Positions 3,478 to 27,470 of a stretch of DNA of 51,349 bases are shown piece by piece (the stretch's first letter is position 1; each line of letters begins with the position of its first letter). The notes under the pieces are model-generated. The model saw only the letters and a program-made list of their open reading frames with translations, searched no databases and was not told the origin of the DNA. The translations under genes were made by a program, and so were the position numbers. This DNA is from an uncultured Halobacteriales archaeon (GTDB lineage Archaea > Halobacteriota > Halobacteria > Halobacteriales > Haloarculaceae), in the NCBI GenBank assembly GCA_964569925.1, contig CAZMWG010000001.1, positions 1 through 51,349 of the forward strand, read 5' to 3'.

Positions 3478-5481
3478 TCACTCGACCTGGTTGAACAGGT
3501 CGATCAGGTCGGTGTAGTCGATCCGACCGTTGTCGTTGTAGTCGTAGTAGGCCGCGTTGGCCTGCATCTGCTCGTTCTCCATGTTCTCGAAGTACGTCAC
3601 GACGTCGTCGTAGTCGACCCGGCCGTTGCCGTTGAGGTCCTCGTAGTAGCCGTCGCCGTCCGGGTCGGCCGCCCTCTCGGGGAACGTCGGCCCGTCGCCC
3701 GACCCGGAACCGTCGCCGGGCTCGCCGCCGTCGTCGGAGCCGTCACCCGATCCGGAGCCGTCGCCGGCGTTCGCGCCGCCCGAGACGGTCTCCATCTCGA
3801 AGGGCACCATGTCGTCTTTCGTCTCGGCCAGCGCCTGCTTGACGTACTCGCCCATGTTCGGGTTGCCCAGCAGCGTCCAGTCACAGGGCAGGTCCGTGCA
3901 GTTGTCCGGGTACGCCGACTCGTCGGTGTCGTACCAGCTCCCGTTGTCCAGGTCGAGTTCGCCCTCGGCGACGGTGAAGTCGACGTCGAACATCACCGGC
4001 AGCCAGCGGTTGTCGGCACACCAGGCGACCCAGCTGATCCGCTCGTCGGACTCCAGGGCCTCGGTCACCGGTTTGCCGTACTCGTCGGTGGTGCCCTGGC
4101 CGGTGGTCGAACCCTGCAGCCAGATGCTGACCTCCTCGCTGTCGATCCAGCCGAACTCCGTCACCGCGATCGGGTGGACCTCCTGGGCGTTCTGTATCCC
4201 CTGGGCCTCGTAGGCCTCCCAGCCGTAACAGGACTGCTCGTAGACGTCCTCGGGGGTCTCGTCCAGGAAGGGGTTGGGCACCTCCATGTACTCGTAGTCG
4301 GTGTCGTTGAGCCAGTTCTCCGTCTGGCTCACCGCGTGGCCGCCGTAGTTGTGCCACACCGCGGCGACGTCCTCGAACCCTTCCTCGTCGAAACCGCCCC
4401 AGTGCAGCGCCTGGCTCGCCTGACACCAGCCCGGCAGCCCCATCAGCATGAGCTTCCCCGGGGCGTGCTCCCGGACCTTCTCCATGATCGGCGCCGCGAA
4501 GTCCTTGCGGAACGTCTCCCAGAGGGGCTTCTGCTTGAACGCCCCACACCCCTCGACCGGACCCCAGATCCCCGGCGCCGTCGGCTCGTTGTACGGCTCG
4601 TAGATCACGTGGGGCTCGTCGGCGTACCGCTCGGCCACCTCGTCCCAGAACATGATCGTCTCGTCGACCAGCTCCTGGTTGACCTCCCAGGCCGTGTAGG
4701 GGGTGTCGTCCATGTTGTTCTCCGAGAGCCCCTGCACGAAGCCGTCGCCGGGTGTCTCCGCGCGGTACTCCGTGTCGACCCACCCCCAGGAGGCGGGCTT
4801 GTCCTCGCCGTAGTAGGTGTTCTTACACCAGTACAGCGTGTTGTCGCTCTCGTAGGGTAGGTGGTTCTCGGCGCCCGCGGGCCCGTCACCCGGCGGCTGC
4901 TCGTGCCAGTGACGGTGGTAGTCGACGATGCAGTAGACGCCCCGCTCCTTGCAGCGCTGGACGATGGGGTCGTAGTAGGTGTCGAGGTAGTCCTGCAGTT
5001 GCTCCTCGTCGAACGCCGGCGGCTGGGCCGGGATCATCTTCCGCCGGTCCGGGTCGATCTCGGGCGGCGAGTCCTCGCCGTAGCGCTCGCCGGTGTTGCC
5101 GTTGGGGTGCTCGCCGATGTCGGTCGGCTGGGCCGGGACACGGATCACGCGCGGATGCCACCCCTTCTCGTTGTTCGTGATCATGTCCAGCAGCTGGCGG
5201 GGCGTCTTCCCCCGGACGTTCTTGGTGATCGCCAGCCGCTTCGGGTCGGGGATGTTCAGTCCCCGCATCTTGAACGTCTCGTCGCTCTCGTTGACGATCC
5301 GGTTGTCGGAGCTGACGCTCAGATCCTGGAACTCCGCGATCGCCGCGGCCGCGGAACCGACCGCCCCGGTGCCCACGCCCAGCGCGATGGCGCCCGCCGC
5401 GCCCCCGCTGGCCTGCAGGAACCGCCGCCGCGTCGTGTTCGAGCCTGTTCCCCCGTTCGTCCGCTGGTTTCCGTCTGTCAT
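3478..5481 (-). CDS. secreted GH5 endoglucanase-type glycoside hydrolase with acidic G/S/D linker and C-terminal dockerin-like module
   Basis: Tat motif TRRRFLQASGG. GH5 acid/base motif VIYEPYNEP and nucleophile motif AVTEFGW. C-terminus is DPDGDGYYEDLNGNGRVDYDDVVTYF...YDYNDNGRIDYTDLIDLF. I chose ATG 5481; in-frame alternatives exist at 5517 and 5580. Confidence 0.9.
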   Translation of the reverse strand: MTDGNQRTNGGTGSNTTRRRFLQASGGAAGAIALGVGTGAVGSAAAAIAEFQDLSVSSDNRIVNESDETFKMRGLNIPDPKRLAITKNVRGKTPRQLLDMITNNEKGWHPRVIRVPAQPTDIGEHPNGNTGERYGEDSPPEIDPDRRKMIPAQPPAFDEEQLQDYLDTYYDPIVQRCKERGVYCIVDYHRHWHEQPPGDGPAGAENHLPYESDNTLYWCKNTYYGEDKPASWGWVDTEYRAETPGDGFVQGLSENNMDDTPYTAWEVNQELVDETIMFWDEVAERYADEPHVIYEPYNEPTAPGIWGPVEGCGAFKQKPLWETFRKDFAAPIMEKVREHAPGKLMLMGLPGWCQASQALHWGGFDEEGFEDVAAVWHNYGGHAVSQTENWLNDTDYEYMEVPNPFLDETPEDVYEQSCYGWEAYEAQGIQNAQEVHPIAVTEFGWIDSEEVSIWLQGSTTGQGTTDEYGKPVTEALESDERISWVAWCADNRWLPVMFDVDFTVAEGELDLDNGSWYDTDESAYPDNCTDLPCDWTLLGNPNMGEYVKQALAETKDDMVPFEMETVSGGANAGDGSGSGDGSDDGGEPGDGSGSGDGPTFPERAADPDGDGYYEDLNGNGRVDYDDVVTYFENMENEQMQANAAYYDYNDNGRIDYTDLIDLFNQVE
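3481..3666 (-). repeat. dockerin-like module coding segment (dispersed repeat, copy 1 of 9)
   Basis: DPDGDGYYEDLNGNGRVDYDDVVTYFENMENEQMQANAAYYDYNDNGRIDYTDLIDLFNQVE. Confidence 0.85.
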
Positions 5482-5560
5482 GGTGCTCGTGGCGGACCGA
5501 GTCCGCCGTCCCCCCATCCACGCGGTGGTGGATTGCGCTCCGTTGGTTGAAACGCTACTC

Positions 5561-5598
5561 GAATAAATCTTTGGAACCATTATCAGAAATATAGTTCG
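5561..5598 (-). promoter_or_regulatory. AT-rich island, candidate TATA/BRE promoter of the GH5 gene 3478..5481
   Basis: The minus strand reads cgaactatatttctgataatggttccaaagatttattc, in an otherwise ~70% GC context, 80-115 nt upstream of ATG 5481. Confidence 0.4.
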
Positions 5599-5745
5599 TG
5601 TCCGACCGCCGCGTCGCTCCGCGGGCCGACCGGTCGGCGTTCCCGACGGGGACCCGTCGTCCCGCCGTCCCCGTCGCCGGACCGTCGACGGTCCCCCGCC
5701 CGACGTCCCGGGTCGCCCCGACGCGGACGTCGGGGGGAACGGCGC

Positions 5746-7467
5746 TCAGTCCACGTCCTCGAAGAGGCCGATCAGGTCCGTGTAGTCGATCCGGCCGTTG
5801 CCGTTGTAGTCGTAGGCGCCGACGTTGTCGGTCATCGCGGGCTCGTCCATGTGCTGGAAGTAGACGACGACGTCGTCGTAGTCGATCTCGCCCGACCCGT
5901 TGAGGTCCTCGTACAGCCCGTCGCCGTCGATGTCGGCCGGCATCGCCCCGTCCATCGGCGCGACCGGACGGTCGTCGCCGTCGGTCGTCGCGGTCACGCG
6001 GCCCTTCGGCGACGCGTTCCCGGCCCCGTCGACCGCCCACACCGCGACCTCGTACTCGGCCCCGGAGTCGAGTCTCTCGACGGTCGCCGTCGTGGTCCCC
6101 GCCGGCACCGTCGTCCGGCGGCCGTCGACGGCGACGACGTACTCCGCGACCCCGCTGCCCTCGTCGCTCGCGGCGGCCCACGACACCGTCACCGACTCCT
6201 CGGTGGTCCCCGACAGGGCGAGCCCGGTCGGGGTCGTCGGCGGGCTCGTGTCCTCCTCGCCGCCGCCGACGTCCCCGTCCCCGTCCCCGTCCCCGTCGCC
6301 GCTCCCCGCGGCCGGCACGTCGACGTCCTTCTTCTCGGTCAGCCGGTCTCTCACCCACCGCCCCCAGTCGTTGGCCACCTCGTACTGGCGGTTCAGCATG
6401 CCGGGGTCCCAGTCGAAGTCGAACGACCACGCCTGCCAGTGCATCGGGTGGGCGTCGAACAGCTCCGCGAACTGGGGCCCGTAGGTCTCGGCGTCCCCCG
6501 CCAGGTACGGCGCCGCCCCGCCCCAGCCGAACTCGCTCATGAACACCGGCACCTCCTCGGCCGGCTGGCCGAAGTACTTCTCCAGGGGCCGCAGCCCCTC
6601 CTGGGTGTAGACGTGTGCCGAGTAGGTCAGGTTGTCCCCCTCGAACTCGTGTTCGGGCGCCCAGTAGGTCCACTGTGTCCACCGCGGCGACCCGATGATC
6701 ACCACGTTGCGCGGCGCGTGCTCGCGGATCGTGTCCACCCACGGCTGGGCCTCCTCGCGCCAGGTGAGCCAGGTCTCCTCGGACACCGGATCCGTCACGT
6801 CGGGTCCCCCGTCGTAGACGTCGTCCCCGGCGTACGGTTCCACCGGCTCGTTGTACACCTCGTAGAGGACGTGTGACTCCTCGGCGTAGCGGGGCGCCAC
6901 CGTCTCCCAGAAGGTCCGGATCTCCTCGTCCAGCGACTCGTCGGTGTACTTCGGCCCGCTGGGCCAGTGGCGGTGGTAGTCGAGGATGCAGTAGGTCCCC
7001 GTCTCCGCGCACTTCTCGACCGCCGGATCCACGTACTTCCGCAGGTAGCTGTCCAGTTGGTCCTGGGTGAACGCCACCGGCTGTGCCACCCCGGCGCCCT
7101 CCCGGGCGATGTCCTGGGGCTGCATCGGCACCCGGATCACGTGGGAGTGCCAGCCGTCGGAGGTGGCCATCTCGACCAGCTTCTCGGCCCGTCGCTTGTA
7201 GTAGGGCGCGTCCCGGGCCGCCCTGTAGGGGTCGACGATGTTGACACCCCGCAGGACCACCTTGTTCCCGCTCGGGTCCCGCAGCAGGTTGCCGTCTCGC
7301 TCCAACCACGGCGTGGGGATCCCCGCCCCCGCCGCCGAGCCCATCCCGCTGGCGCCGATCCCCGCGGCCGCCGCGCCCGCCGCGGCGGCCCGCACGAACT
7401 CGCGGCGCGACGTTCCCGATCGGTCGTCCTGTCCCCCCGTGTCGAACTCCGTGTCCTCGGTCGTCAT
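5746..7467 (-). CDS. secreted GH5 endoglucanase-type hydrolase - FN3 - dockerin-like module
   Basis: Tat motif SRREFVRAAAAG. GH5 motifs VLYEVYNEP and VFMSEFGW. FN3-like segment PTGLALSGTTEESVTVSWAAASDEGSGVAEYVVAV...YEVAVWAVDGAGN. C-terminus DIDGDGLYEDLNGSGEIDYDDVVVYF...YDYNGNGRIDYTDLIGLF. Confidence 0.9.
   Translation of the reverse strand: MTTEDTEFDTGGQDDRSGTSRREFVRAAAAGAAAAGIGASGMGSAAGAGIPTPWLERDGNLLRDPSGNKVVLRGVNIVDPYRAARDAPYYKRRAEKLVEMATSDGWHSHVIRVPMQPQDIAREGAGVAQPVAFTQDQLDSYLRKYVDPAVEKCAETGTYCILDYHRHWPSGPKYTDESLDEEIRTFWETVAPRYAEESHVLYEVYNEPVEPYAGDDVYDGGPDVTDPVSEETWLTWREEAQPWVDTIREHAPRNVVIIGSPRWTQWTYWAPEHEFEGDNLTYSAHVYTQEGLRPLEKYFGQPAEEVPVFMSEFGWGGAAPYLAGDAETYGPQFAELFDAHPMHWQAWSFDFDWDPGMLNRQYEVANDWGRWVRDRLTEKKDVDVPAAGSGDGDGDGDGDVGGGEEDTSPPTTPTGLALSGTTEESVTVSWAAASDEGSGVAEYVVAVDGRRTTVPAGTTTATVERLDSGAEYEVAVWAVDGAGNASPKGRVTATTDGDDRPVAPMDGAMPADIDGDGLYEDLNGSGEIDYDDVVVYFQHMDEPAMTDNVGAYDYNGNGRIDYTDLIGLFEDVD
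5749..5934 (-). repeat. dockerin-like module coding segment (copy 2 of 9)
   Basis: DIDGDGLYEDLNGSGEIDYDDVVVYFQHMDEPAMTDNVGAYDYNGNGRIDYTDLIGLFEDVD. Confidence 0.85.
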
Positions 7468-10171: not shown

Positions 10172-13100
10172 TCAGGACCGGTCGATCTCCTGGAACAGTT
10201 CCACGACGTCGTCCAGGTCGATCCGGTCGTTGCCGTTGAGGTCGTAGGCCGCGACGTTGTCGGTCAGGGTCGCCTCCTCGCGGTTCTGGTAGTAGGTGAC
10301 CACGTCGTCGTAGTCGACCCGGCCGTTGGCGTTGAGGTCCTCGTGGATCCCGTCGCCGTCGAGGTCTGCCGGCACCGTCCCGTCGATCGGCGGGAGGCTG
10401 GTCACGGAGACGTCGGCCTCGCCGCCCTCGACGGTGAAGCTCCCCCCGTCGTCGTCGTCGAACCGGGTCGGCTCGACCGTCAGGTCGACGTCGCCGGCCG
10501 ACCGACCCGCGAGTCGGACCGTCGCGAGGACGGCGTCCGCCGCGCCGTCCGTCACCGATCCGTCGGGCTCGTCGCTCTCACCGACATCGACCGCGCCCAG
10601 CGTGGCGGAGGCGCCGTCCGCCGCCACCGTCGACCGGGAGATGCTGAACGCGTCCGGATGGGAGACCTCCTCGACGGTCGCCACGGACGGGTCGGAGACC
10701 GTCAGCTCGGCCTCGTATCCCGAGAGGCCGTCGGGCGCGGCCGACAGCACCACCTGCGCGGTCGTCGTCCCGCCGGTCGGCACATCGTCGTCCGAGAGCG
10801 ACAGCGACAGGGTCGGCTCGTCGGCCTCGACGACCGGCAGACCGGTCACGCGCAGCGGCTCGTCCGCGGGCTCGTCGTCGGGCGTCAGGTAGCCGAGCGC
10901 CACGCCGGTGTACACCGCGCCGGCCTCGAAGGCCACGTCGTAGCTGGCCACCGCGCTCGATCCGCCGGCCGGCCGCACCTCCAGGGTGAGGTCGGCGGCC
11001 GGGACGGTCGTCGTCGCCACCTCGCCGAACTCCAGCCCCGACACCACCGGATCGCCGCCCGCGGGCGCGACGTCCACCGCGGGGGCGTCGGGCGAGGCGT
11101 GGAACAGCGTCACCCGGGCGCGCCCCCCCGGATCGGAGCGGTCGTCGACGGTGACGTCGAGTCCGAACGCCGTCTCGCCCGCCTCCTCGCTCAGCTCTCC
11201 CTCCGCGATCACCGTGTAGCTGGTGTCGGCCTCGACCGTGTAACCGCGCTCGATCACGGTCGTGTCGGGGTCGCCCGCCGGCGTGATCCGCACGGTCCGC
11301 TCGCCGGCCGGGACGATCAGGTAGTCGCTGACGGCGCCGAAGGGCACGTCCGCCAGGGCGACCGACCCGTCGACGCGGACGTCGACGTTCGGGGCGTCGG
11401 GCGAGGCGTGGATCACCCGCACGCCGGCCTCGCCCTCCGGTTCCTCGACGACCGGCAGGCCGGTCAGCCGGAACGGCTCGTCCGCGGGCTCGTCGCCCGG
11501 CGTCAGGTAGCCGAGCGCCAGCCCGGTGTACGTCTCGCCGGCCTCGAACGACAGATCGTACGTCCCGACCGGATCGCCGCCGGCGGCGGGCCGCACCTCC
11601 ACGGTCGCCTCCGTCGCGGGGACCGCCGTCGTCGCCGCGTCGCCGAAGGCCAGGTTCGAGACCAGCGTCGTCCCGCCGGCGGTGACGATGTCCACCGCGG
11701 GGGCGTCGGGCGAGGCGTGGAACAGCGTCACCCGGGCGCCCTCGGGCTCCGAGCGGTCGTCGGTCCGCAGGCCCACCTCGAAGCTCCCGGCACCGCTCCC
11801 CGTCGAGAGTTCGCCGCGGGCGATGGCGGTGTAGCTCGTCTCCGCGGCCACCGTCACCGTCCCCTCGAAGGCGACCGTGCTCGGGTCGCCGGCGGCGGTG
11901 ATCTCGACCGTCCGCTCGCCGGCCGGAACGGTCAGGTAGTCGCTGACGGCGCCGAAGGGCACGTCCGAGAGCACCGTCGACCCGTCGACGCTGACGTCCA
12001 CGTTCGGGGCGTCGGGCGAGGCGTGGATCACCCGCAGGGAGCCCTCGCCGTCGGGCTGGGTCACCCCGTCGCCGGCCTCGACGGGCGCCATCCCGTCGAC
12101 CTCCGCCAGCGCCATCACCAGCGGCGCGGTGTAGTCGATGGCCCACTCGTTGGTGGCGTACGAGCCCAGGTCGTCGTAGTAGCCCAGCCCCTCCGGCGTC
12201 CCGGGGTCGACGTGGTCGATCGTCGAGTCCCCGCCGTAGACGGCTTCGCCGCCGGCGTACAGGTCCGAGACGTGGGGTCCCCCGACGAGCATCCCCGGGA
12301 CGAGTAGCCCCTGGCTCTCGACGATCCGGTCGTGGGGGTCGTCGGGCGAGCGCTCCCCGTAGCCCGTGACGTAGGAGTAGTTCGTCGCCGACCGCCCCAG
12401 CACGTGGTGGAGCGGCTCCAGCAGCCAGTCGCCGTTCTGGTCGCCGATGTAGTCGTCGACCGCCAGGTCGACGCCGATCGAACACTGCGCCGCCCGCGAC
12501 ACCCCGGCGCCCGCACAGCCCCAGTAGTAGTCGTACAGCCCGGTGGTGTAGGCGTCCTGCGGGCGGTTCCAGTCGCCCGAGCGGTACCGCTGTGTGACGT
12601 ACACCCGCTTCTGCATCGCCGTCGCCGCGACGTCGGCGTCGGCGCCGTCCGTGTTCGCGTACGCGATGTGGCCAAGCGAGACCGGGTTGTCCCAGCCGAT
12701 CGGTCCCGCGGGGTACGTCCCCGACTCCCCCGGGAGCGGGATCTCGGACCCGCCGGCGTTCAGGTACGGCGGCAGTTCCTCCCGGATGTACTCGTCGTAC
12801 CGCTCGTCGCCGGTGGTCCGGAGCAGTTCCGCCGCCGCCCAGTACCGGTCGGGGGCGTCCTCCTGTGCCGCCTCGATCTCCGAGAGGGACTTGGGCAGGG
12901 GGTAAGGTTCGTCGACACGGCGGGCCCGCTCGACCTGCTGCTCGTAGGACTCACGCCAGTACGGCCCGGTCCCGGCGTTCTGCCCCTCCGACATCGCCCA
13001 CACCGTCTCCGGGTGTTCGATCAGGTACCCCCAGCCCGCCTCGGCGTTCTCGAGCATCTCGTCGGCGAACGCGGGGTCGTACTCCTCGAACACCCGCGCG

Positions 13101-14098: not shown

Positions 14099-14121
14099 AC
14101 GGTCGTTCCACGGACCGTGTT

Positions 14122-19601: not shown

Positions 19602-19651
19602 ACCTGAATCCCCCGTGTGCCGGTACGCGGTACTTGATTTCGCTTCCTCGC

Positions 19652-22203: not shown

Positions 22204-22331
22204 CGTGTGTTCGTGTGGACTGTCCGACCGGTCGGACCCCCCTCCCGGTCCGCGCGTCCTCGCGCTCGTTCGTCGCACTGTACCCCCCACCGGACCCGAG
22301 CCACGACGGCCCGGGTCCGACGCCTCCGGAC

Positions 22332-25300
22332 CTACCCCGACATCTCCTCGAACAGCGAGACCACGTCGGCCAGATCCAGGCCGCCGTTGCCGTTGAAGTC
22401 GTAGGCCTCCGGGTGGGACGTGATCGCCTCGTCGTCGCGCTCGTAGTAGTACTGGATCACGTCCGTGAACTCCACCTCCCCGTTGGCGTTGAGGTCCTCG
22501 TACAGCCCGTCGTCGTCGATGTCCTGGGGCGTGATCCCGTTGATCGGCGAGACGCCGCCGGTGTCCGTCTCCTCGGTCACCGACAGGACCGCGGTCACGT
22601 CGCCGACCGACATCGGGTTGCCGTCGTCGTCGTCGAACTTGCCCGTCGACAACACGAGCTCCGTGCTGCCGGTCGACTCGGCGTCGAGCGTGACCGTCGC
22701 CAGCGTCACGTCGGCGGCGCCGGGCTGGACCTCCTGGCCGAGGTCGGTCCCGTTCATCGACACCGAGCCGCCGTCGTCGGCCACGCTCGCGCCGCCGATC
22801 ATCCCCCCGCTGCCGAAGGCGCTGGTGACGCCCGCGTCCGTGATCGTCGCCACCGCCGGGTCGGCGACCTCGAGGGTGGCGTTGAACCCGGAGATGCCCG
22901 TCGGCGCCGACGGCAACAGGATCGTCGCCTCGACGGTCCCGCCGGGCGCGGCCTCGGCGGGCGACAGCGCTAGGTCGACGCCCTCGCCGTCGACGCCGCC
23001 GCCGACCGTCCCGTCGTCGTCGCCGGGCTCGCCGTCGTCGGAGCCGTCGTCGGCGTCGTCCTCGTCACCGCCGGAGTCGCCCCCGACGACGAGGGTCGTC
23101 GTCGTCTCCCCCGGCGACGTCAGCCCGCCGTCGTCGTCGGTGAGCCGGTCGACCGACAGCGAGAGGTCGACGTCGCCCTCGCTCTCGCCGGCCAGCGTGA
23201 CCGTCGCCAGCGTGACGTCCGTGGCGCCGGGCTGGACCGCTCCGCCGAAGTCGATGCCCGTCGCCGTCATCGAACCCTCGCCCACGTCGGCGCCGCCGGC
23301 CGGCCCCTGGAACCTCTCGAGCAGCCCGCCGTCCGCGATCGTCGCGATCGACGTGTCCGAGACCTCGAACGCGAGGTCGAAGCCGGCCACCCCCTCCGGG
23401 GCGGCGCCCAGCACCAGTTCCGCGTCGACGGTCCCGCCGGCGGGGACGTCGTCGGCCTCGAGGTCGACCGAGAGGTCGCCGTCGCCGGCGTCGTCCTCGT
23501 CGTCGGAGCCGTCGCCCGTGCCGTCGCCGGCGTCGCCCTCGCCGCCCTCCGTCTCGACGGAGAGCGGGGCGCTCGCGCTCGTCGACATCCGGCTCCCGTC
23601 GCCCATGTCGACGTTCGCCTCGACGGAGACGTCCGCCTCGCCGGCGGCCTCGCCGACGAGGGTCACCGTCCCCAGGTCGACGTCCACGGCGTCCGGCTGG
23701 ACGGCGTTGTTGACGTCGCCGCCACGCAGCGTCGCCGTGGCGCCGTCGCCGCTCACGGTCGCCGAAGTCGGCTGGAACGACCCCGGGATCGTCGCCGAGT
23801 CGACGGTGACGACGTCCGTGTCGCTCACGGTCAGGTCGAGGTAGAAGCCGGTCATGTTCCCGGCCATCGACGGGAGTGTGATCGTCGCCGCGACCTCCTC
23901 GCCCGGCGCGACCGTGTCCGAGGCCAAGTCCAGCGAGACGCCCGAACCGTCCCCGGTCCCGTCGTCGCCGCCGCCGGCGTCGTCCTCACCCTCGTCGCCG
24001 GCGCCGCCGTCACCGACGACGAGCGTCGACGAGCCGCTCGCCGACGCCTGGCTCCCGTCGGCCAGGTCCATACTGCCCGCCGCGGACACCGACGCTTCGC
24101 CCTCGCCCTCGACGGTCATGGTGACCGTCGCCAGCGTGACGTCCGTGGCGCCGGCGGGGACGTCGTCGTTGACGTCGCCGCCGCGGAAGGAGGCGAAGGC
24201 ACCGCCGTCGGCGACGGAACTCTCGGCGAACCGGAACCAGTCGGCGGTCTCGATCCCGGTGATCGTCGCCACCGACGTGTCGTCGATCGAGACCTCGACG
24301 TCGAAGCCGGTCGGGTTCCCGGCGATCGACGGGAGGACGACCGTCGCCTCCACCTCGTCGCCGGGTTCGGCACCCGACGGGAGGTCGACGACGAGTCCGT
24401 CGCTCGCGGTGCCGTCCTCCCCGTCGTCGGAGCCGTCGTCGCCGGAACCGTCGTCGACGCCGCCGTCACCGACGACGATCGTCGACGAGCCGCTCGCCGA
24501 GACCCGACCGCCGTCGGCCAGGTCCATGCCACCGGTCGCCGTCAGGGAAGCTTCCCCCTCGCCCTCGACGGCCAGCGTGACCGTCGCGAGCGGCACGTCG
24601 GTGGCGCCGGCGGGGACGTCGTCGTTGACGTCGCCGCCGCGGAAGGAGGCGGAACCCCCGTTGTCGGCGACGGAACTCTCGGCGAACCGGAACCAGTCGG
24701 CGGTCTCGATCCCGGTGATCGTCGCCACCGACGTGTCGTCGATCGAGACCTCGACGTCGAAGCCGGTCGGGTCCCCGGCGATCGACGGGAGGGTGATCGT
24801 CGCCTCCACCTCGTCGCCGGGCTCGGCTCCGGACGGCAGCCCGACCGCCAGCCCGTCGCTCGCGGTGCCGTCCTCCCCGTCGCCGGCGCCGCCGTCACCG
24901 ACGACGATCGTCGACGAGCCGCTCGCCGACGCCTGGCTCCCGTCGGCCAGGTCCATACTGCCCGCCGCGGACACCGACGCTTCGCCCTCGCCCTCGACGG
25001 TCATGGTGACCGTCGCCAGCGTGACGTCCGTGGCGCCGGCGGGGACGTCGTCGTTGACGTCGCCGCCGCGGAAGGAGGCGAAGGCACCGCCGTCGGCGAC
25101 GGAACTCTCGGCGAACCGGAACCAGTCGGCGGTCTCGATCCCGGTGATCGTCGCCACCGACGTGTCGTCGATCGAGACCTCGACGTCGAAGCCGGTCGGG
25201 TTCCCGGCGATCGACGGGAGGACGACCGTCGCCTCCACCTCGTCGCCGGGTTCTGCACTCGACGGGAGGTCGACGACGAGCCCGTCGCTCGCGGTGCCGT

Positions 25301-26687
25301 CCTCCCCGTCGTCGGAGCCGTCGTCGCCGGAGCCGCCGTCGTCGGTCGCGACGGCCAGCGTGGCGCTCGCGCTCATCGAACTCCTGGCACCGTCCGCCGT
25401 GTCGACGTCGCCGGCGGCCGACACCGCGGTCTCGCCCTCGCCCTCGCCGGCCAGGGTGACCGTCGCCACCGTGACGTCCGTGGCGCCGGCGTCGACGGCG
25501 TTGTCGACGTCGCCGCCCCGGATCGACACCGAGGAGCCGTCGGCGCTCACGCTGCTGGCGCTGGGCTTGAGCAGTTCCGACGGCGTCGCGTCCGCGATCG
25601 TTGCCACCGACGGGTCCTCGACGGTCACCGTGGCGTCCATGCCGGTCATGTCGCCCGACACCTCCGGCACGACCAGCCGCGCCTGGACCTCCTCTCCGGG
25701 CGCGACCGTGTCGGCTGGCACCTCGAAGCTCGCCGACAGCCCCTCGTCGGAGCCGGCGGCGATGGTCGCCGTCGCCGTCGCGGCGGCCGACTGGTTGCCG
25801 GCGCCGTCGACGGCCGTCACGGCGACGTCGTACGTCGTCCCCGCAGACAGGCCGTCGACCGTCGCCTCGGTGGTGTCGCCGCCGACGTTCATCGCGGTGT
25901 CCCCGACCTCGACGATGTAGTGGTCGACGCCGGTCCCCTCGTCGGTCGACGCGGACCAGGAGAGCGTGACGCTCGACTCGGTCGTGCCGGTCGCCGCGAG
26001 GTTGCCCGGCGTCGACGGGCCACTGGTGTCCTCGCCGGGATCCGGCGTCGGCTCGGGCGCCCCGGAGCCGCCGCCGGCCGACCCGGCGGCAAACCGCATC
26101 TCGTCGATCTCGACGGCACCCGAGCCGTTCGCTCCCTCCCAGAAGTTGAACCGCACCGACGGCAGCGACGACCAGTCGGCGTCGACCGCCGACAGCGGCA
26201 CCGAGACCGTCGAGAAGGAGGTGCCGATCGACCCGTCCGCGACGTCCCCGAACGTCTCGACGACGCCGCCGAGCTTGATCGCGAAGTGGCTCCCCTCGCC
26301 GCCCTCGTCGCCCCGGATCACGAACTCCAGGCGCTCGTAGTCGGAGACGTCACGCCCGACGTTGCTGCCGAACCAGCCGGCGTTGTCGTACTCCAGGCGC
26401 AACGCGCCGTCGACGACCTCGCCGTTGCCGCCGCCGTTGGCGAAGCCGCCCGCGTCCGCCCAGTTACCGATGTCGTTCCCCTCCGGCCACGCCGGGTCGC
26501 CGTCGTAGTCGTTGACGAGCAGCCCCTGCGCGGACTCCTGTGCCGCCACCGTTCCGGCGCCCGCGGCGAGCAGTCCCGTTCCGGCGGCCGCGGCCTGCAT
26601 GAACGTCCGCCTCGAGGCGTCGTACCCGCCGTCGACCCCTGACGTGGTCCGATCTGTCGGTTCTGTGTTCCCTGTGTCGTTGGTCAT
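22332..26687 (-). CDS. scaffoldin-like protein: Tat signal - CBM-like beta-sandwich domain - FN3 - seven cohesin-like modules joined by acidic linkers - divergent C-terminal dockerin-like module
   Basis: Tat motif SRRTFMQAAAAGTG, starting at ATG 26687. Seven ~130-aa modules share the pattern [LV]..[DE]L......PG..V.A.[IV].LP.....G[FM]......V.D..VATI ... GATDV.LATVT[LM]...EGE. They sit at about 25345-25745, 24905-25290, 24475-24860, 24020-24405, 23555-23940, 23085-23475 and 22580-22980. C-terminus DIDDDGLYEDLNANGEVEFTDVIQYY...YDFNGNGGLDLADVVSLF. Confidence 0.85.
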   Translation of the reverse strand: MTNDTGNTEPTDRTTSGVDGGYDASRRTFMQAAAAGTGLLAAGAGTVAAQESAQGLLVNDYDGDPAWPEGNDIGNWADAGGFANGGGNGEVVDGALRLEYDNAGWFGSNVGRDVSDYERLEFVIRGDEGGEGSHFAIKLGGVVETFGDVADGSIGTSFSTVSVPLSAVDADWSSLPSVRFNFWEGANGSGAVEIDEMRFAAGSAGGGSGAPEPTPDPGEDTSGPSTPGNLAATGTTESSVTLSWSASTDEGTGVDHYIVEVGDTAMNVGGDTTEATVDGLSAGTTYDVAVTAVDGAGNQSAAATATATIAAGSDEGLSASFEVPADTVAPGEEVQARLVVPEVSGDMTGMDATVTVEDPSVATIADATPSELLKPSASSVSADGSSVSIRGGDVDNAVDAGATDVTVATVTLAGEGEGETAVSAAGDVDTADGARSSMSASATLAVATDDGGSGDDGSDDGEDGTASDGLVVDLPSSAEPGDEVEATVVLPSIAGNPTGFDVEVSIDDTSVATITGIETADWFRFAESSVADGGAFASFRGGDVNDDVPAGATDVTLATVTMTVEGEGEASVSAAGSMDLADGSQASASGSSTIVVGDGGAGDGEDGTASDGLAVGLPSGAEPGDEVEATITLPSIAGDPTGFDVEVSIDDTSVATITGIETADWFRFAESSVADNGGSASFRGGDVNDDVPAGATDVPLATVTLAVEGEGEASLTATGGMDLADGGRVSASGSSTIVVGDGGVDDGSGDDGSDDGEDGTASDGLVVDLPSGAEPGDEVEATVVLPSIAGNPTGFDVEVSIDDTSVATITGIETADWFRFAESSVADGGAFASFRGGDVNDDVPAGATDVTLATVTMTVEGEGEASVSAAGSMDLADGSQASASGSSTLVVGDGGAGDEGEDDAGGGDDGTGDGSGVSLDLASDTVAPGEEVAATITLPSMAGNMTGFYLDLTVSDTDVVTVDSATIPGSFQPTSATVSGDGATATLRGGDVNNAVQPDAVDVDLGTVTLVGEAAGEADVSVEANVDMGDGSRMSTSASAPLSVETEGGEGDAGDGTGDGSDDEDDAGDGDLSVDLEADDVPAGGTVDAELVLGAAPEGVAGFDLAFEVSDTSIATIADGGLLERFQGPAGGADVGEGSMTATGIDFGGAVQPGATDVTLATVTLAGESEGDVDLSLSVDRLTDDDGGLTSPGETTTTLVVGGDSGGDEDDADDGSDDGEPGDDDGTVGGGVDGEGVDLALSPAEAAPGGTVEATILLPSAPTGISGFNATLEVADPAVATITDAGVTSAFGSGGMIGGASVADDGGSVSMNGTDLGQEVQPGAADVTLATVTLDAESTGSTELVLSTGKFDDDDGNPMSVGDVTAVLSVTEETDTGGVSPINGITPQDIDDDGLYEDLNANGEVEFTDVIQYYYERDDEAITSHPEAYDFNGNGGLDLADVVSLFEEMSG
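22335..22523 (-). repeat. dockerin-like module coding segment (copy 9 of 9, scaffoldin-borne, most divergent)
   Basis: DIDDDGLYEDLNANGEVEFTDVIQYYYERDDEAITSHPEAYDFNGNGGLDLADVVSLFEEMSG. Confidence 0.8.
22580..25745 (-). other. array of seven cohesin-like modules within the scaffoldin gene
   Basis: Seven ~130-aa units separated by D/G/S/E-rich linkers. Approximate boundaries are given under the scaffoldin CDS. Confidence 0.8.
24001..25340 (-). repeat. three tandem ~430-450 bp repeats encoding scaffoldin cohesin modules 2-4
   Basis: 24001-24455 matches 24886-25340 at an offset of 885 bp. Within that, 24024-24368 and 24909-25253 are identical over 345 bp. The middle copy (about 24475-24880) is diverged by roughly 10%. 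Confidence 0.95.
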
Positions 26688-26746
26688 TCTTCCCCCCCAG
26701 CGTGCGTCTCCGCACTGAGGTACCCACATCGTTCGTGGTGTCCATA

Positions 26747-26783
26747 CCATAAAAAAATAGCGGTAGATAGTGAAATATAATCG
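26747..26783 (-). promoter_or_regulatory. AT-rich island: T7 run downstream of the anchor gene plus candidate promoter of the scaffoldin gene
   Basis: The minus strand reads gattatatttcactatctaccgctatttttttatgg, 60-95 nt upstream of ATG 26687. Confidence 0.45.
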
Positions 26784-26816
26784 GTTCGGCGGTCGACGGT
26801 CGGCCGGCGTCCCGGG

Positions 26817-27470
26817 CTACAGGATCTCGCGCAGGCCGACGCCCGCGAGCACGACGACCCCGAGCAACACCGTCGCGATCGCCATCGTCGCGACCAGCCC
26901 CGGCGTGCCGGAGCCACCCGGGGACCCGGAGCCGTTCGCCGACTCCGTCCCGTCCGCCGATCCACCCGCCGACCCGCCCGCCGTGGGGTTCCCGACCACG
27001 AGGGACCCGTTCCGGACCGACCGGGCCGCCGACTCGCCGACGTCGTTGTCCAGTTCGACCGTCGACGCCTCCAGCGAGACGACCGACTCGGTGTCTCCCC
27101 GGACGGTGACGGTCCCCAGGGTCACCGCCCCGGTCCCGTTTCCGACCGTGTCGTTGAGGTCGATCCCCCTGAGGTAGATCCGTCGGTCGTCGACGACCCG
27201 TACGTTCGTCAGCAGCATCTCGTCGTTGACCGATCCGCCGACGATCGTCGCGTTCGGCCCGACGGCGACGCTCAGGTTGTACCCCGCCAGCCCGTTCGGC
27301 GCCTCCGTGAGGGTCACCGTCACCGTCGTCTCCCCGCCCACCGGCACCTCGCCGTCGCCGACTTCGAGCGTCGGCCCGTCCTGTGCGACCGCCGCCGTCC
27401 CCGCCCCCGCCGCGGCGACCGCCAGCACGGCCGCCACCGCCCCGATCGTCGCCCCGCGAACGCTGTGCAT
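26817..27470 (-). CDS. cell-surface anchored single-cohesin protein: signal peptide - cohesin-like module - G/S-rich stalk - PGF-CTERM-like transmembrane anchor
   Basis: The N-terminal signal MHSVRGATIGAVAAVLAVAAAGAGTAAVAQ has no twin arginine. The cohesin-like body reads LEVGDGEVPVGGETTVTVTLTEAPNGLAGYNLSVAVGPNATIV...GAVTLGTVTVRGDTESVVSLEASTVELDNDVGE. The C-terminus GSGSPGGSGTPGLVATMAIATVLLGVVVLAGVGLREIL resembles the archaeosortase PGF-CTERM signal, with PGL in place of PGF. Confidence 0.8.
   Translation of the reverse strand: MHSVRGATIGAVAAVLAVAAAGAGTAAVAQDGPTLEVGDGEVPVGGETTVTVTLTEAPNGLAGYNLSVAVGPNATIVGGSVNDEMLLTNVRVVDDRRIYLRGIDLNDTVGNGTGAVTLGTVTVRGDTESVVSLEASTVELDNDVGESAARSVRNGSLVVGNPTAGGSAGGSADGTESANGSGSPGGSGTPGLVATMAIATVLLGVVVLAGVGLREIL

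What the first reader, a model, noticed from the sequence alone, without database searches (positions are those of the whole stretch)
3478..27470. 24-kb co-directional cluster encoding what looks like a complete cellulosome-type (cohesin-dockerin) system in a haloarchaeon
Ten consecutive minus-strand genes appear in this transcription order: surface-anchored single-cohesin protein, 7-cohesin scaffoldin, GH5, GH12, GH10, GH5 mannanase-type, GH9, GH5-CBM6, GH5, GH5. All eight enzymes and the scaffoldin end in the same ~62-aa module (D.DGDG.YEDLNGNG..DYDDVVTYF ... AYDYN.NGRIDYTDL..LF). That module has the defining dockerin architecture: two duplicated calcium-loop-plus-helix segments of the form D.N.NG..D..D followed by a hydrophobic helix. 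In total there are 11 cohesin-like modules and 9 dockerin-like modules. The scaffoldin-first, enzymes-after order mirrors the cip-cel type clusters of cellulolytic clostridia. The enzyme set covers cellulose, xylan and mannan, but I saw no GH48-type exoglucanase. Cellulosomes are established in anaerobic bacteria. To my knowledge, archaeal cohesin and dockerin modules have been reported only as isolated modules, not as an enzyme-loaded multi-cohesin scaffoldin with its own anchor.
Basis: partly seen in the sequence, partly recalled or inferred. Interest (0 to 1): 0.95.

Follow-up and report, generated by a model that had tools for sequence, protein, structure and literature searches.

The report
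Cellulosome-like enzyme cluster in a haloarchaeon
An uncultured salt-loving archaeon carries a gene cluster that looks like a complete cellulosome: a membrane-anchored docking protein, a seven-socket scaffold with a sugar-binding module, and eight plant-fibre-degrading enzymes with matching plugs; such machines are so far known only from anaerobic bacteria and fungi.

Summary
Ten consecutive minus-strand genes (3478-27470) encode an anchor protein, a scaffoldin and eight glycoside hydrolases: four GH5 cellulases, one GH5 mannanase, GH9, GH10 and GH12. Together they hold exactly 11 cohesin-like and 9 dockerin-like modules, and the rest of the window holds none.

- **Cohesin:** Pfam's Cohesin model barely sees the modules. 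An AlphaFold model returns almost only cohesins from the PDB (E 7e-9, TM 0.82).
- **Dockerin:** all nine C-terminal modules match Pfam Dockerin_1 over its full length.
- **Scaffoldin:** its N-terminus carries an unannotated beta-sandwich module, probably a CBM11/CBM30-like carbohydrate-binding module.
- **Host:** an uncultured Halobacteriales archaeon, probably Haloarculaceae.

Syntenic clusters occur in Halomicrobium urmianum, Halomontanus rarus TS33 and two metagenome contigs. Halococcoides cellulosivorans, which grows on cellulose, has a stand-alone scaffoldin-like gene.

The papers I could search describe such clusters and note the dockerins, but read them as substrate-binding. None mentions cohesins or a cellulosome.

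Cohesin-dockerin pairs also end non-cellulolytic secreted proteins in more than 20 cultured haloarchaea, so the modules themselves are not new. The enzyme-loaded multi-cohesin scaffoldin is. No binding has been tested.

The parts
26817..27470 (-). Anc: 217-aa anchor protein. It has an N-terminal Sec-type signal peptide, one cohesin module (26976-27386), a Gly/Ser linker and a C-terminal transmembrane helix (TPGLVATMAIATVLLGVVVLAGVGLREIL).
   Evidence: Sequence. Cohesin membership. It groups with the anchor cohesins of H. urmianum and locus L031. It gives no PGF-CTERM hit, whereas relatives do. The only near-identical homologues are in two other metagenomes.
22332..26750 (-). Sca: scaffoldin of 1472 aa. 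The true start may be M8 or M22, and the twin-arginine motif is at residue 46. Domain order is CBM-like module, FN3, seven cohesins, divergent dockerin.
   Evidence: The protein has a single member in the 5.8-billion-protein database.
26058..26555 (-). N-terminal beta-sandwich module of Sca, about 160 aa, probably a carbohydrate-binding module (CBM11/CBM30-like). In this window it occurs only in Sca. In other haloarchaea it sits at the C-terminus of free cellulases and xylanases.
   Evidence: Homologues. AlphaFold model: pLDDT 70.8, pTM 0.71. Foldseek top hits are CBM11 1v0a (E 4e-4, TM 0.55), then CBM30, CBM29, CBM28 and CBM4. Pfam CBM_11 reaches only E 0.22. No PDB sequence hit. Present in every scaffoldin of the related loci.
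22557..25748 (-). Seven tandem cohesin modules of Sca: 25332-25748, 24882-25292, 24453-24863, 23997-24407, 23538-23954, 23067-23489 and 22557-22991. Asp/Gly/Glu-rich linkers separate them.
   Evidence: Copies 2 and 4 are 96% identical at DNA level over 300 nt.
22338..22532 (-). Sca dockerin, the divergent scaffoldin type. It is 40-51% identical to the enzyme dockerins.
   Evidence: Dockerin_1 E 8e-4 when scanned alone. It groups with the H. urmianum scaffoldin dockerin, apart from all enzyme dockerins.
19714..22290 (-). GH5 cellulase with domain order FN3, cohesin (19948-20379), dockerin (19729-19923).
   Evidence: Its cohesin has orthologues in H. urmianum, L030 and L031.
17766..19655 (-). 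GH12-like endoglucanase with domain order FN3, cohesin (17976-18398), dockerin (17769-17963).
   Evidence: GH12 support from PDB hits only. The syntenic homologues carry weak precomputed Pfam Glyco_hydro_12 hits. The cohesin-dockerin part is the region that was modelled and matched cohesins.
15962..17707 (-). GH10 xylanase with a dockerin (15965-16159).
   Evidence: Pfam Glyco_hydro_10 E 1e-36. Dockerin.
14168..15880 (-). GH5 endo-beta-mannanase with FN3 and a dockerin (14171-14365).
   Evidence: Match to solved GH5 mannanase 8gf3 at E 3e-79. Also.
10172..14098 (-). GH9 cellulase. Domain order is CelD_N Ig-like domain, GH9 domain, four DUF4397 repeats, cohesin (10394-10825), dockerin (10181-10375).
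   Evidence: Pfam Glyco_hydro_9 E 1e-66 and DUF4397 x4 E 2e-74. Also.
7640..10048 (-). GH5 cellulase with domain order FN3, CBM6/CBM35, FN3, dockerin (7643-7837).
5746..7467 (-). GH5 cellulase with FN3 and a dockerin (5749-5943).
   Evidence: Its Dockerin_1 score of 24.7 bits is above the 22.9 cut-off even in the full-length scan. Also.
3478..5580 (-). GH5 cellulase with a dockerin (3481-3675).
   Evidence: The isolated dockerin scores 27.9 bits against Dockerin_1.
27535..28632 (+). Divergently transcribed DUF8054 membrane and zinc-ribbon protein. It is a conserved neighbour of the cluster. Whether it belongs to the system is uncertain.
   Evidence: It occupies the same position next to the anchor or scaffoldin gene in L001, L027, L030 and L031. 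Sequence.

Best explanation
The cluster most likely encodes a cell-associated, cellulosome-like multi-enzyme complex adapted to high salt.

**Shown here.**
- Eight secreted hydrolases cover cellulose (GH5 x4, GH9, GH12), xylan (GH10) and mannan (GH5 mannanase). Each ends in a two-loop calcium-binding dockerin.
- One secreted protein, Sca, carries seven cohesin-fold modules, a CBM-like beta-sandwich module and a dockerin of a different sequence class.
- One small protein, Anc, carries a single divergent cohesin and a C-terminal membrane helix.

**Inferred.**
- The enzyme dockerins plug into the Sca cohesins in a calcium-dependent way.
- The CBM-like module targets the loaded scaffoldin to the polysaccharide.
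- The Sca dockerin binds the Anc cohesin, holding the complex on the cell surface. Released sugars would then be captured next to the cell.
- The extra cohesins carried by GH9, GH12 and one GH5 enzyme give further docking sites. Ten non-anchor cohesins would serve eight enzyme dockerins, allowing branching or enzyme-on-enzyme assembly.
- Most genes appear to have their own promoter, so complex composition could be tuned.
For: **Cohesin fold.**
- The AlphaFold model of the GH12 cohesin-dockerin region has pLDDT 81.5.
- Almost all of its top 50 Foldseek PDB hits are cohesins. These include C. perfringens 2jh2 (E 7e-9, TM 0.82), C. acetobutylicum CohA2, A. cellulolyticus ScaB, C. thermocellum CipA 1anu and 1aoh, and A. 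fulgidus 2xdh.
- A sequence profile of the 11 modules hits R. flavefaciens cohesins 5m2o and 5aoz at E 2e-4 over their full length.

**Dockerin.**
- All 9 modules match Pfam Dockerin_1 across the model (best E 2.4e-7). It is the only family that all nine match.
- The model shows no helix before loop 1, then loop-helix, linker, loop-helix.
- The two calcium-binding loops start 32 residues apart and show internal duplication.

**Two specificity classes.**
- Enzyme dockerins are 57-82% identical to each other but 40-51% identical to the Sca dockerin.
- The Sca dockerins of the window and of H. urmianum group together, apart from the enzyme dockerins of both organisms.
- The anchor cohesins of the window, H. 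urmianum and L031 group together.

**Conservation.**
- The layout of DUF8054, anchor, CBM-like multi-cohesin protein and a run of dockerin-bearing GH5, GH9, GH12, GH10 and mannanase genes recurs in four other loci. They are H. urmianum CP084090, H. rarus TS33 CP119796 and two contigs of metagenome 3300059813.
- Halococcoides cellulosivorans, shown to grow on cellulose (PMC10267330), has a protein with a CBM-like module, three cohesins and a dockerin.

**CBM-like fold.**

**Export.** Twin-arginine motifs and acidic pI values.
Against: - No binding, localisation or expression data exist. Every interaction is inferred.
- The Pfam Cohesin model fails. Only 2 of 11 modules give weak hits, best E 0.0026.
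- The dockerin profile scores canonical EF-hand proteins better than solved dockerins when searched against the PDB (E 7e-6 against 5e-3).
- The anchor's C-terminus is not a recognised PGF-CTERM signal.
- In L031 an anchor-clade cohesin coexists with a scaffoldin that has no dockerin. The pairing of Sca dockerin with Anc cohesin is therefore not obligatory.
- The grouping trees are neighbour-joining trees without support values, built on 25-38% identity.
- Cohesin-dockerin pairs also end phosphatases and other proteins in many haloarchaea. The modules are therefore a general device, not one specific to cellulose degradation.
- The CBM-like model is of only moderate quality (pLDDT 70.8, TM about 0.55).
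- The scaffoldin repeats are very similar, so the copy number in a metagenome assembly could be wrong.
Confidence: 0.75

Rival explanations
1. The modules are a generic haloarchaeal surface-display system rather than a discrete cellulosome. Cohesin-dockerin modules simply tether many kinds of secreted proteins to single-cohesin, PGF-CTERM-anchored surface proteins. The multi-cohesin protein is then just a larger display rack, without enzyme synergy or substrate targeting.
For: - Cohesin-dockerin pairs end PhoX-like and PhoD-like phosphatases and beta-helix proteins in more than 20 cultured haloarchaea.
- Hundreds of proteins of about 210-260 aa with a single cohesin exist, some with a true PGF-CTERM signal.
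- In H. rarus and L031 the scaffoldin has no dockerin, while a membrane-anchored single-cohesin protein is present.
Against: - The multi-cohesin proteins carry a CBM-like module in all six loci examined, and it is found only in them.
- In five of those loci they sit directly beside runs of dockerin-bearing hydrolases with complementary specificities.
- That combination is the defining logic of a cellulosome.
- This rival overlaps the main explanation more than it excludes it.
Confidence: 0.12
2. The dockerin-like modules are calcium-binding stability or substrate-binding modules, which is the reading used in the haloarchaeal literature. The cohesin-like modules are inert Ig-like spacers. No protein-protein docking takes place.
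For: - Sorokin et al. 2024 and a 2026 paper interpret the type I dockerin of haloarchaeal hydrolases as taking part in substrate binding.
- EF-hand models also match the module.
- The Pfam Cohesin model does not recognise the beta-sandwich modules.
Against: - Foldseek returns cohesins specifically rather than generic Ig domains, and does so at high rank.
- Cohesin-like and dockerin-like modules co-occur systematically in the same loci and genomes.
- Two dockerin classes and a separate anchor cohesin class are conserved across genera.
- I know of no dockerin shown to bind polysaccharide. This rests on my own knowledge, not on a test here.
Confidence: 0.06
3. The cohesin-dockerin pairs act mainly on themselves. 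Either the dockerin folds back onto the adjacent cohesin of the same chain, or proteins carrying the pair polymerise head-to-tail into chains. The scaffoldin would then be secondary.
For: - In GH9, GH12, GH5_d and Sca, and in all the non-cellulolytic haloarchaeal proteins, the cohesin lies immediately upstream of the dockerin, with a linker of only 10-25 residues.
- The GH5_d-type cohesin carried by an enzyme is conserved as an orthologue in four loci.
Against: - Five of the eight enzymes have a dockerin but no cohesin, so they need a partner on another protein.
- Sca offers seven cohesins but has only one dockerin of its own.
- I could not inspect inter-domain contacts in the model. Its pTM is only 0.61.
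Confidence: 0.07

Closest known systems
Clostridial cellulosomes, such as Acetivibrio (Clostridium) thermocellum CipA with OlpB/SdbA, and the Ruminiclostridium cellulolyticum cip-cel cluster
   Same: - A non-catalytic scaffoldin carries tandem cohesins and a carbohydrate-binding module.
- The enzymes end in duplicated calcium-loop dockerins.
- The scaffoldin has a second, divergent dockerin, and a separate cell-bound cohesin protein exists. This is the type I / type II hierarchy.
- The gene order is scaffoldin first, then enzymes.
- Cellulases, a xylanase and a mannanase are combined.
   Different: - The host is an archaeon and an extreme halophile.
- The proteins are very acidic (pI about 4.1) and mostly exported through the Tat pathway.
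- The anchor is a C-terminal membrane helix, or a PGF-CTERM signal in relatives, instead of SLH domains or sortase.
- The scaffoldin module resembles CBM11/CBM30 rather than CBM3.
- There is no GH48 enzyme and no X-module before the scaffoldin dockerin.
- Three enzymes carry their own cohesin.
- Cohesin sequences are too divergent for Pfam PF00963.
Ruminococcus flavefaciens and Acetivibrio cellulolyticus cellulosomes, which use adaptor scaffoldins and enzyme-borne modules
   Same: - The best sequence-profile matches of the window's cohesins are R. flavefaciens cohesins 5m2o, 5aoz and 5lxv.
- Proteins that carry both a cohesin and a dockerin act as adaptors in those systems (my own knowledge).
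- A scaffoldin that also contains a GH domain exists in A. cellulolyticus ScaA (GH9; my own knowledge). Its parallel here is the H. rarus protein with GH5 and eight cohesins.
   Different: - In the window the cohesin-dockerin pair sits at the C-terminus of catalytic enzymes, not on dedicated adaptor proteins.
- Sequence identity to the bacterial cohesins is only 12-21%.
Non-cellulosomal archaeal cohesin and dockerin modules, such as the Archaeoglobus fulgidus cohesin (PDB 2xdh)
   Same: - It is an archaeal cohesin fold. 2xdh is among the Foldseek hits (E 2.6e-6).
- The window's cohesin family also includes methanogen proteins from Methanofollis and Methanogenium.
- The family also includes cohesin-dockerin pairs on non-cellulolytic haloarchaeal proteins.
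   Different: - Those are single modules, or pairs on proteins unrelated to polysaccharide degradation.
- They are not associated with a multi-cohesin scaffoldin loaded with glycoside hydrolases.
Published haloarchaeal and natronoarchaeal glycoside hydrolase clusters (Sorokin et al. 2024, PMC10963439; Elcheninov et al. 2023, PMC10267330)
   Same: - They are the same kind of locus, with runs of Tat-exported GH5, GH10 and GH9 genes.
- The published list includes a 1,755-aa protein annotated GH5/CBM6 followed by a 258-aa protein annotated as an S-layer glycoprotein.
- TS33, which is Halomontanus rarus, is one of the genomes discussed there. Its locus, L028 here, contains eight cohesins and an anchor cohesin.
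   Different: - Those papers do not mention cohesins, scaffoldins or cellulosomes.
- They treat the type I dockerin as a putative substrate-binding module.
- The window's cluster is the most elaborate of the loci I examined. It has seven cohesins, a scaffoldin dockerin, an anchor and eight enzymes.

Membership tests
Cohesin module (Pfam PF00963; nine-stranded beta-sandwich jelly roll) | Significant match to the Cohesin sequence family | tested here: not met
   In Pfam only 2 of 11 modules give weak hits, best E 0.0026, against a gathering cut-off of 24.1 bits. A profile of the 11 modules does reach R. flavefaciens cohesins in the PDB at E 2e-4 over their full length.
Cohesin module (Pfam PF00963; nine-stranded beta-sandwich jelly roll) | Cohesin three-dimensional fold | tested here: met
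   The AlphaFold model has pLDDT 81.5 and shows 8 strands of three or more residues. Almost all of the top 50 Foldseek PDB hits are cohesins of types I, II and III, with E down to 7e-9 and target TM up to 0.82.
Cohesin module (Pfam PF00963; nine-stranded beta-sandwich jelly roll) | Binds a dockerin | not testable with these tools
   This needs ELISA, ITC or a co-crystal. No complex prediction was available.
Dockerin (Pfam PF00404, type I-like) | Sequence match to the Dockerin_1 model | tested here: met
   All 9 isolated modules match, with best E 2.4e-7. Member 1 scores 27.9 bits against a cut-off of 22.9 and covers model positions 1-54 of 57. In full-length scans only one protein exceeds the cut-off.
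Dockerin (Pfam PF00404, type I-like) | Two duplicated segments of about 22 residues, each a 12-residue calcium-binding loop followed by a helix, with no helix before the loop | tested here: met
   The loops read DLNGNGRVDYDD and DYNDNGRIDYTD. Their starts are 32 residues apart and 10 of 17 positions are identical between the two segments. In the model, helices lie at residues 167-176 and 199-209, short linker helices at 180-189, and no helix at 146-166.
Dockerin (Pfam PF00404, type I-like) | Calcium-dependent folding and cohesin binding | not testable with these tools
   Only the coordinating Asp and Asn residues at loop positions 1, 3, 5, 9 and 12 can be seen in the sequence.
Cellulosome (scaffoldin-based multi-enzyme complex) | Non-catalytic scaffoldin with multiple cohesins | tested here: met
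   Sca has seven cohesins and no catalytic domain.
Cellulosome (scaffoldin-based multi-enzyme complex) | Several dockerin-bearing polysaccharide-degrading enzymes | tested here: met
   Eight glycoside hydrolases each end in a dockerin.
Cellulosome (scaffoldin-based multi-enzyme complex) | Substrate-targeting carbohydrate-binding module on the scaffoldin | tested here: inconclusive
   The N-terminal module has a beta-sandwich fold closest to CBM11, CBM30, CBM29 and CBM28 (E 4e-4, TM about 0.55, pLDDT 70.8). It has no significant sequence-family match. Binding has not been shown.
Cellulosome (scaffoldin-based multi-enzyme complex) | Attachment to the cell through an anchoring cohesin protein | tested here: inconclusive
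   Anc has a signal peptide, a cohesin and a C-terminal transmembrane helix. The Sca dockerin and the Anc cohesin each belong to a separate sequence class. The pairing is inferred, and L031 is a counter-example.
Cellulosome (scaffoldin-based multi-enzyme complex) | Physical assembly of a high-molecular-weight complex with enhanced activity on cellulose | not testable with these tools
   This requires biochemistry on a cultured carrier such as H. urmianum, H. rarus TS33 or H. cellulosivorans.
PGF-CTERM / archaeosortase A substrate (TIGR04126) | Match to the PGF-CTERM sorting-signal model at the C-terminus | tested here: not met
   The window's Anc gives no hit even at E<=10. Positive controls do match: P0103 at 30.1 bits, above the cut-off, and the H. 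rarus anchor at 21 bits.

The most novel reading that the evidence does not exclude
Extremely halophilic archaea assemble true cellulosomes. These would be hierarchical, with enzyme dockerins binding scaffoldin cohesins and the scaffoldin dockerin binding a membrane-anchored cohesin. Cohesins carried by the enzymes themselves would allow branched or self-extending assemblies. All of this would work at multimolar salt. The cellulosome would then be neither restricted to Bacteria and anaerobic fungi nor tied to anaerobiosis, if these organisms are aerobes as most cultured haloarchaea are (PMC10267330). The wider haloarchaeal cohesin-dockerin system would be a general modular surface-display system from which the cellulosome was built.
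Probability: 0.6. Interest if true: 0.9.

Novelty: new variant of a known kind. Interest (0 to 1): 0.85.

Why it matters
**Scope of the cellulosome concept.** Cellulosomes are textbook machines of anaerobic Firmicutes and some anaerobic fungi. A 2025 review of the field does not mention archaea at all. An archaeal, hypersaline version would extend the concept to a third domain. It would also change how cellulose turnover in salt lakes and salterns is understood. Comparative genomics of cellulose-degrading haloarchaea has so far left the mechanism open (PMC10267330).

**Reinterpretation of published annotations.** It would change the reading of the 'type I dockerin' labels in the haloarchaeal literature, where the module is treated as substrate-binding.

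**Applications.** It would provide salt-stable, highly acidic cohesin-dockerin pairs. These would be new parts for designer cellulosomes and protein scaffolding in high-salt or low-water processes.

**Testability.** The question can be tested directly. Cultured strains carry the same system: Halomicrobium urmianum, Halomontanus rarus TS33 and Halococcoides cellulosivorans.

Tried and rejected
- **Pfam and NCBIfam on the full-length proteins.** No Cohesin or PGF-CTERM hit, and only borderline Dockerin_1 hits. Scanning isolated modules and using structure prediction resolved this.
- **Homologue searches.** The search with the whole scaffoldin was dominated by FN3 and CBM-like hits and found no close orthologue. 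The anchor search found only near-identical metagenome copies. The profile search of 1.84 billion representatives was what revealed the family.
- **Pfam for GH12.** No hit, so PDB sequence hits were used instead.
- **PDB sequence search with the CBM-like profile.** Nothing found.
- **Exact-sequence look-up of P0036.** Failed. The longer cluster member P0184 worked.
- **Literature search mixing genus names with cohesin and dockerin.** It returned only unrelated haloarchaeal papers.
- **Bacterial origin, considered because the window is 68-78% G+C.** Rejected. The window encodes L15e, Bat/HTH_10 regulators and an acidic proteome, and its best L15e relatives are Haloarculaceae.
- **Single-operon reading.** Rejected. 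Eight of the ten genes have their own AT-rich TATA-like box, and at least one T-run terminator-like hairpin lies inside the cluster.
- **Strict co-variation of scaffoldin dockerin with anchor-type cohesin.** Tested across loci and only partly supported. L031 breaks the rule.

Full report
**1. The observation**

The region 3478-27470 contains ten consecutive minus-strand ORFs. In transcription order they are:
- Anc, 26817-27470, 217 aa
- Sca, 22332-26750, 1472 aa
- GH5 with FN3, 19714-22290
- a GH12-like protein with FN3, 17766-19655
- GH10, 15962-17707
- a GH5 mannanase with FN3, 14168-15880
- GH9 with four DUF4397 repeats, 10172-14098
- GH5-FN3-CBM6-FN3, 7640-10048
- GH5 with FN3, 5746-7467
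- GH5, 3478-5580

Pfam supports GH5, GH9, GH10, CBM6 and FN3. The mannanase matches a solved GH5 mannanase at E 3e-79.

The GH12 assignment is weaker. Pfam gives no hit. The domain aligns over its full length to PDB 7mks (E 2e-5) and to Thermotoga Cel12A (E 0.01), and the EIM and E-x-G-x-E-x-W motifs are conserved. Syntenic homologues elsewhere carry weak Glyco_hydro_12 hits.

BLASTP with the anchor's roughly 140-aa module finds ten further copies at E 3e-13 to 3e-8. Seven are in Sca, and one each is in GH5_d, GH12 and GH9. HMMs built from the modules find exactly 11 cohesin-like and 9 dockerin-like modules in a six-frame scan of the whole window, and none outside the cluster. The seven scaffoldin copies are also visible as tandem DNA repeats 430-507 nt apart. 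No GH48 is present.

**2. What the modules are**

*Cohesin.* Pfam's Cohesin model essentially fails. Only 2 of 11 modules give hits, and the best E is 0.0026. A profile of the eleven modules does reach Ruminococcus flavefaciens cohesins 5m2o and 5aoz at E 2e-4 over their full length.

Structure settles the question. I modelled the cohesin-dockerin C-terminus of the GH12 protein with AlphaFold2, using a nine-sequence alignment. The model has pLDDT 81.5 and pTM 0.61. Searched against the PDB, almost all of its top 50 hits are cohesins. They include:
- C. perfringens 2jh2 (E 7e-9, TM 0.82)
- C. acetobutylicum CohA2
- A. cellulolyticus ScaB
- R. cellulolyticum 1g1k
- C. thermocellum CipA 1anu and 1aoh
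- type II cohesins
- the archaeal A. fulgidus cohesin 2xdh

*Dockerin.* When scanned alone, all nine C-terminal modules match Pfam Dockerin_1 across nearly the whole model. The best E is 2.4e-7, and the one member shown in detail scores 27.9 bits against a cut-off of 22.9. EF-hand models also match, but only on single loops. A PDB profile search scores EF-hand proteins somewhat better than solved dockerins. Three features favour a dockerin:
- The two 12-residue loops (DLNGNGRVDYDD and DYNDNGRIDYTD) start 32 residues apart.
- The two segments are internally duplicated, with 10 of 17 positions identical.
- The model has no helix before loop 1, then loop-helix, short linker helices, loop-helix.

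*Scaffoldin N-terminus.* Roughly residues 66-231 of Sca have no significant Pfam or PDB sequence match. They are homologous to the C-terminal module of many haloarchaeal free cellulases and xylanases, such as a Halorhabdus sp. SVX81 GH5. The model is of moderate quality (pLDDT 70.8, pTM 0.71). It is a beta-sandwich whose best PDB neighbours are carbohydrate-binding modules: CBM11 1v0a (E 4e-4, TM 0.55), CBM30, CBM29, CBM28 and CBM4. I read it as a probable carbohydrate-binding module of an undescribed family. This is inferred, not shown.

*Anchor.* Anc has a Sec-type signal peptide, one cohesin, a Gly/Ser linker and a C-terminal hydrophobic helix. It is not recognised by the PGF-CTERM model. 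Relatives are recognised: P0103 scores 30.1 bits and the H. rarus anchor 21 bits.

*Export and salt adaptation.* All eight enzymes and Sca have twin-arginine motifs. All ten proteins have a pI of 4.05-4.40 and almost no lysine.

**3. Host and surroundings**

- The window encodes ribosomal protein L15e (2724-3311). Its best named relatives are Haloarculaceae MAGs at 85-86% identity and Halomicrobium salinisoli at 83%.
- It also encodes Bat-type HTH_10 regulators, an Mrp antiporter subunit and a phytoene/squalene synthase.
- The anchor has only near-identical copies, in a JGI metagenome (3300042552) and a Logan assembly (SRR8816318).
- The host is therefore an uncultured member of the Halobacteriales, probably Haloarculaceae, with an unusually high G+C content of 68-78%.
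- Eight of the ten genes have an AT-rich TATA-like box 20-35 nt upstream of the start codon, in otherwise GC-rich spacers. GH5_d and GH10 do not, and may be co-transcribed with the gene ahead of them.
- A GC hairpin followed by a T-run lies just after the mannanase gene.
- The cluster is therefore co-directional but probably not one operon.

**4. Related loci**

A profile search of 1.84 billion cluster representatives found 1893 relatives of the cohesin module, 1121 of them at E<=1e-10. Three groups matter.

(a) *Single-cohesin proteins.* There are many proteins of 210-260 aa with one cohesin. Some have a true PGF-CTERM signal and so resemble the anchor.

(b) *Cohesin-dockerin pairs on other proteins.* In more than 20 cultured haloarchaea the pair sits at the C-terminus of non-cellulolytic secreted proteins. 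These include PhoX-like and PhoD-like phosphatases and beta-helix proteins in Halobaculum, Haloplanus, Natrinema, Salinigranum and others. The family also reaches methanogens. Cohesin-dockerin is therefore a general archaeal secretome device.

(c) *Scaffoldin-type proteins.* The table compares the window with the other loci.

| Locus | Anchor | Scaffoldin | Dockerin-bearing enzymes next to it |
|---|---|---|---|
| Window | 217 aa, cohesin + TM helix | CBM-like + FN3 + 7 cohesins + dockerin | 8 (four GH5 cellulases, GH5 mannanase, GH9, GH10, GH12) |
| Halomicrobium urmianum CP084090 (L027) | 199 aa, cohesin + TM helix | WP_225333374.1, CBM-like + 5 cohesins + dockerin | GH5-FN3-cohesin-dockerin; GH5-dockerin |
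| Halomontanus rarus TS33 CP119796 (L028) | 239 aa, cohesin + PGF-CTERM | WP_276252472.1, GH5 + 8 cohesins + CBM-like, no dockerin | two GH5, GH5 mannosidase-type with FN3, GH10, all with a dockerin; a further GH5 cut by the locus end |
| Metagenome 3300059813 contig (L031) | 259 aa, cohesin + C-terminal hydrophobic stretch | CBM-like + 4 cohesins, no dockerin | GH5-FN3, GH5, GH9, GH12, GH5 mannanase, GH5, GH10, all with a dockerin; a further GH5 cut by the locus end |
| Metagenome 3300059813 contig (L030) | none seen | CBM-like + FN3 + 2 cohesins, no dockerin | two GH5-FN3, GH9, GH12, GH5 mannanase, GH5, GH10, GH5 mannanase-PKD, all with a dockerin |
| Halococcoides cellulosivorans CP028858 (L029) | not examined | WP_108380911.1, CBM-like + 3 cohesins + dockerin | none; the gene stands alone |

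In L027, L030 and L031 a divergent DUF8054 gene flanks the cluster, as it does in the window. H. cellulosivorans has been shown to grow on cellulose (PMC10267330). In all six loci the CBM-like module is found only on the multi-cohesin protein. This recurrence across at least four genera is the strongest argument that the arrangement is functional.

**5. Specificity classes**

- The enzyme dockerins are 57-82% identical to each other. They are only 40-51% identical to the Sca dockerin.
- In a neighbour-joining tree, the Sca dockerins of the window and of H. urmianum pair together. They lie outside the enzyme dockerins of both organisms.
- Several enzyme dockerins pair as orthologues across the two organisms.
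- The anchor cohesins of the window, H. urmianum and L031 form one group.
- The GH5_d-type cohesins carried by enzymes form a group conserved in four loci.
- This mirrors the type I / type II division of clostridial cellulosomes. It suggests that enzymes dock on Sca and that Sca docks on Anc.
- There are two caveats. The trees have no support values and rest on 25-38% identity. In L031 an anchor-group cohesin coexists with a scaffoldin that has no dockerin, so the anchor may also accept enzyme dockerins directly, as it plausibly does in H. rarus.

**6. Mechanism**

*Shown:* the domain architectures, folds, export signals, two dockerin classes and conserved synteny.

*Inferred:*
- Calcium-dependent docking of up to seven enzymes on Sca.
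- Targeting of the complex to substrate by the CBM-like module.
- Attachment of the complex to the cell through the Sca dockerin and the Anc cohesin.
- Use of the three enzyme-borne cohesins as extra docking sites. Ten non-anchor cohesins would serve eight enzyme dockerins.

The short linker between cohesin and dockerin in the pairs leaves two other behaviours open: cis-binding, or head-to-tail polymerisation. I could not test these.

**7. Comparison with what is known, and novelty**

Functionally and architecturally this is a cellulosome. It has a scaffoldin with a CBM-like module, dockerin-bearing enzymes, a second dockerin class and an anchoring cohesin. It differs from known cellulosomes in these ways:
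- domain of life
- salt adaptation and Tat export
- type of anchor
- type of carbohydrate-binding module
- absence of GH48 and of an X-module
- cohesins carried by enzymes
- cohesin sequences beyond the reach of the Pfam model

In the searchable literature I found no paper that combines cohesin or cellulosome with haloarchaea in this sense.
- The 2023 comparative genomics paper on cellulose-degrading haloarchaea does not mention cohesin or dockerin.
- A 2025 cellulosome review does not mention archaea.
- Sorokin et al. 2024 describe the TS33 and Natronoglomus hydrolase cluster. Their list includes a 1,755-aa protein annotated GH5/CBM6 and an adjacent 258-aa protein annotated as an S-layer glycoprotein. 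They note type I dockerins but interpret them as substrate-binding. A 2026 paper repeats that reading.

The loci are therefore public and partly described, but the cellulosome interpretation appears to be new. Subscription-only literature was not searchable, so earlier description cannot be excluded.

**8. Verdict**

I classify the finding as a new variant of a known kind. Confidence that the cluster assembles a cohesin-dockerin multi-enzyme complex is about 0.75. Confidence in the specific link from the Sca dockerin to the Anc cohesin is lower, about 0.55. Interest is 0.85. Decisive experiments are feasible in cultured carriers.

Noticed in passing
window 27535-28632 (+); also L001 515-1606, L027 8216-9079, L030 1702-2583, L031 2376-3266: A DUF8054 protein is the divergently transcribed neighbour of the anchor or scaffoldin gene in five independent loci. 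It has two predicted membrane helices and C-terminal CxxC...CxxC zinc-ribbon motifs. The conserved position suggests a functional link, perhaps as a sensor or regulator.
   Followed up: partly
window 10172-14098 (-), about residues 670-1090 of GH9; and window 42848-43717 (+): The GH9 enzyme carries four DUF4397 repeats between its catalytic domain and its cohesin. A separate secreted protein made only of DUF4397, with many N-glycosylation sequons, lies 15 kb away. The role of DUF4397 here, whether spacer or binding module, is unknown.
   Followed up: no
window 23968-24267 and 24853-25152: Scaffoldin cohesins 2 and 4 are 96% identical at DNA level over 300 nt, and copy 3 is 85% identical. This points to a recent tandem duplication. 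It also means the copy number of seven could be affected by collapse or expansion of repeats during metagenome assembly.
   Followed up: partly
L003-L024 (genome-contig loci), match at about 10001-10620 in each: Cohesin-dockerin pairs sit at the C-terminus of PhoX-like and PhoD-like phosphatases and beta-helix proteins in more than 20 cultured haloarchaea, including Halobaculum, Haloplanus, Natrinema, Salinigranum, Halocatena and Halegenticoccus. This suggests a general surface-display or oligomerisation system across the haloarchaeal secretome.
   Followed up: partly
intergenic spacers within window 3478-27670: Eight of the ten genes have an AT-rich TATA-like element (TTATWTTTC-like) 20-35 nt upstream of the start codon, in otherwise 70-80% G+C DNA. 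This would fit leaderless, individually promoted transcripts. GH5_d and GH10 lack the element. A hairpin with a T-run, CCGCCGGCGGGTTTTTTT, follows the mannanase stop codon near 14150.
   Followed up: partly
window 39181-40629 (-) and 40780-41649 (+): An aldehyde dehydrogenase and a fumarylacetoacetate-hydrolase-family protein lie next to each other. They could be the alpha-ketoglutarate semialdehyde dehydrogenase and 2-keto-3-deoxyxylonate dehydratase of the haloarchaeal oxidative pentose pathway. That would fit use of xylan breakdown products.
   Followed up: no
window 22332-26750 (-), N-terminus: The database gene call for Sca (P0001, 1422 aa) starts at M51, which removes the SRRTF twin-arginine motif. 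M1, M8 or M22 is a more plausible start. GH5_d (a GTG start against an internal ATG at residue 29) and GH12 (a TTG start against an ATG at residue 18) have similar start-codon ambiguity.
   Followed up: no
window 50494-51300 (+): A 268-aa secreted protein is made almost entirely of acidic D/E/V/G repeats such as DGDLEVE and DVEFET. Its function is unknown.
   Followed up: no
window 44830-46749 (+) and 46933-50175 (+): Two large regulators lie 17-23 kb from the cluster. The first has Pfam HTH_10 and BAT hits with weak PAS and GAF hits. The second looks similar by eye from its translation and was not scanned. I did not test whether either controls the cluster.
   Followed up: no
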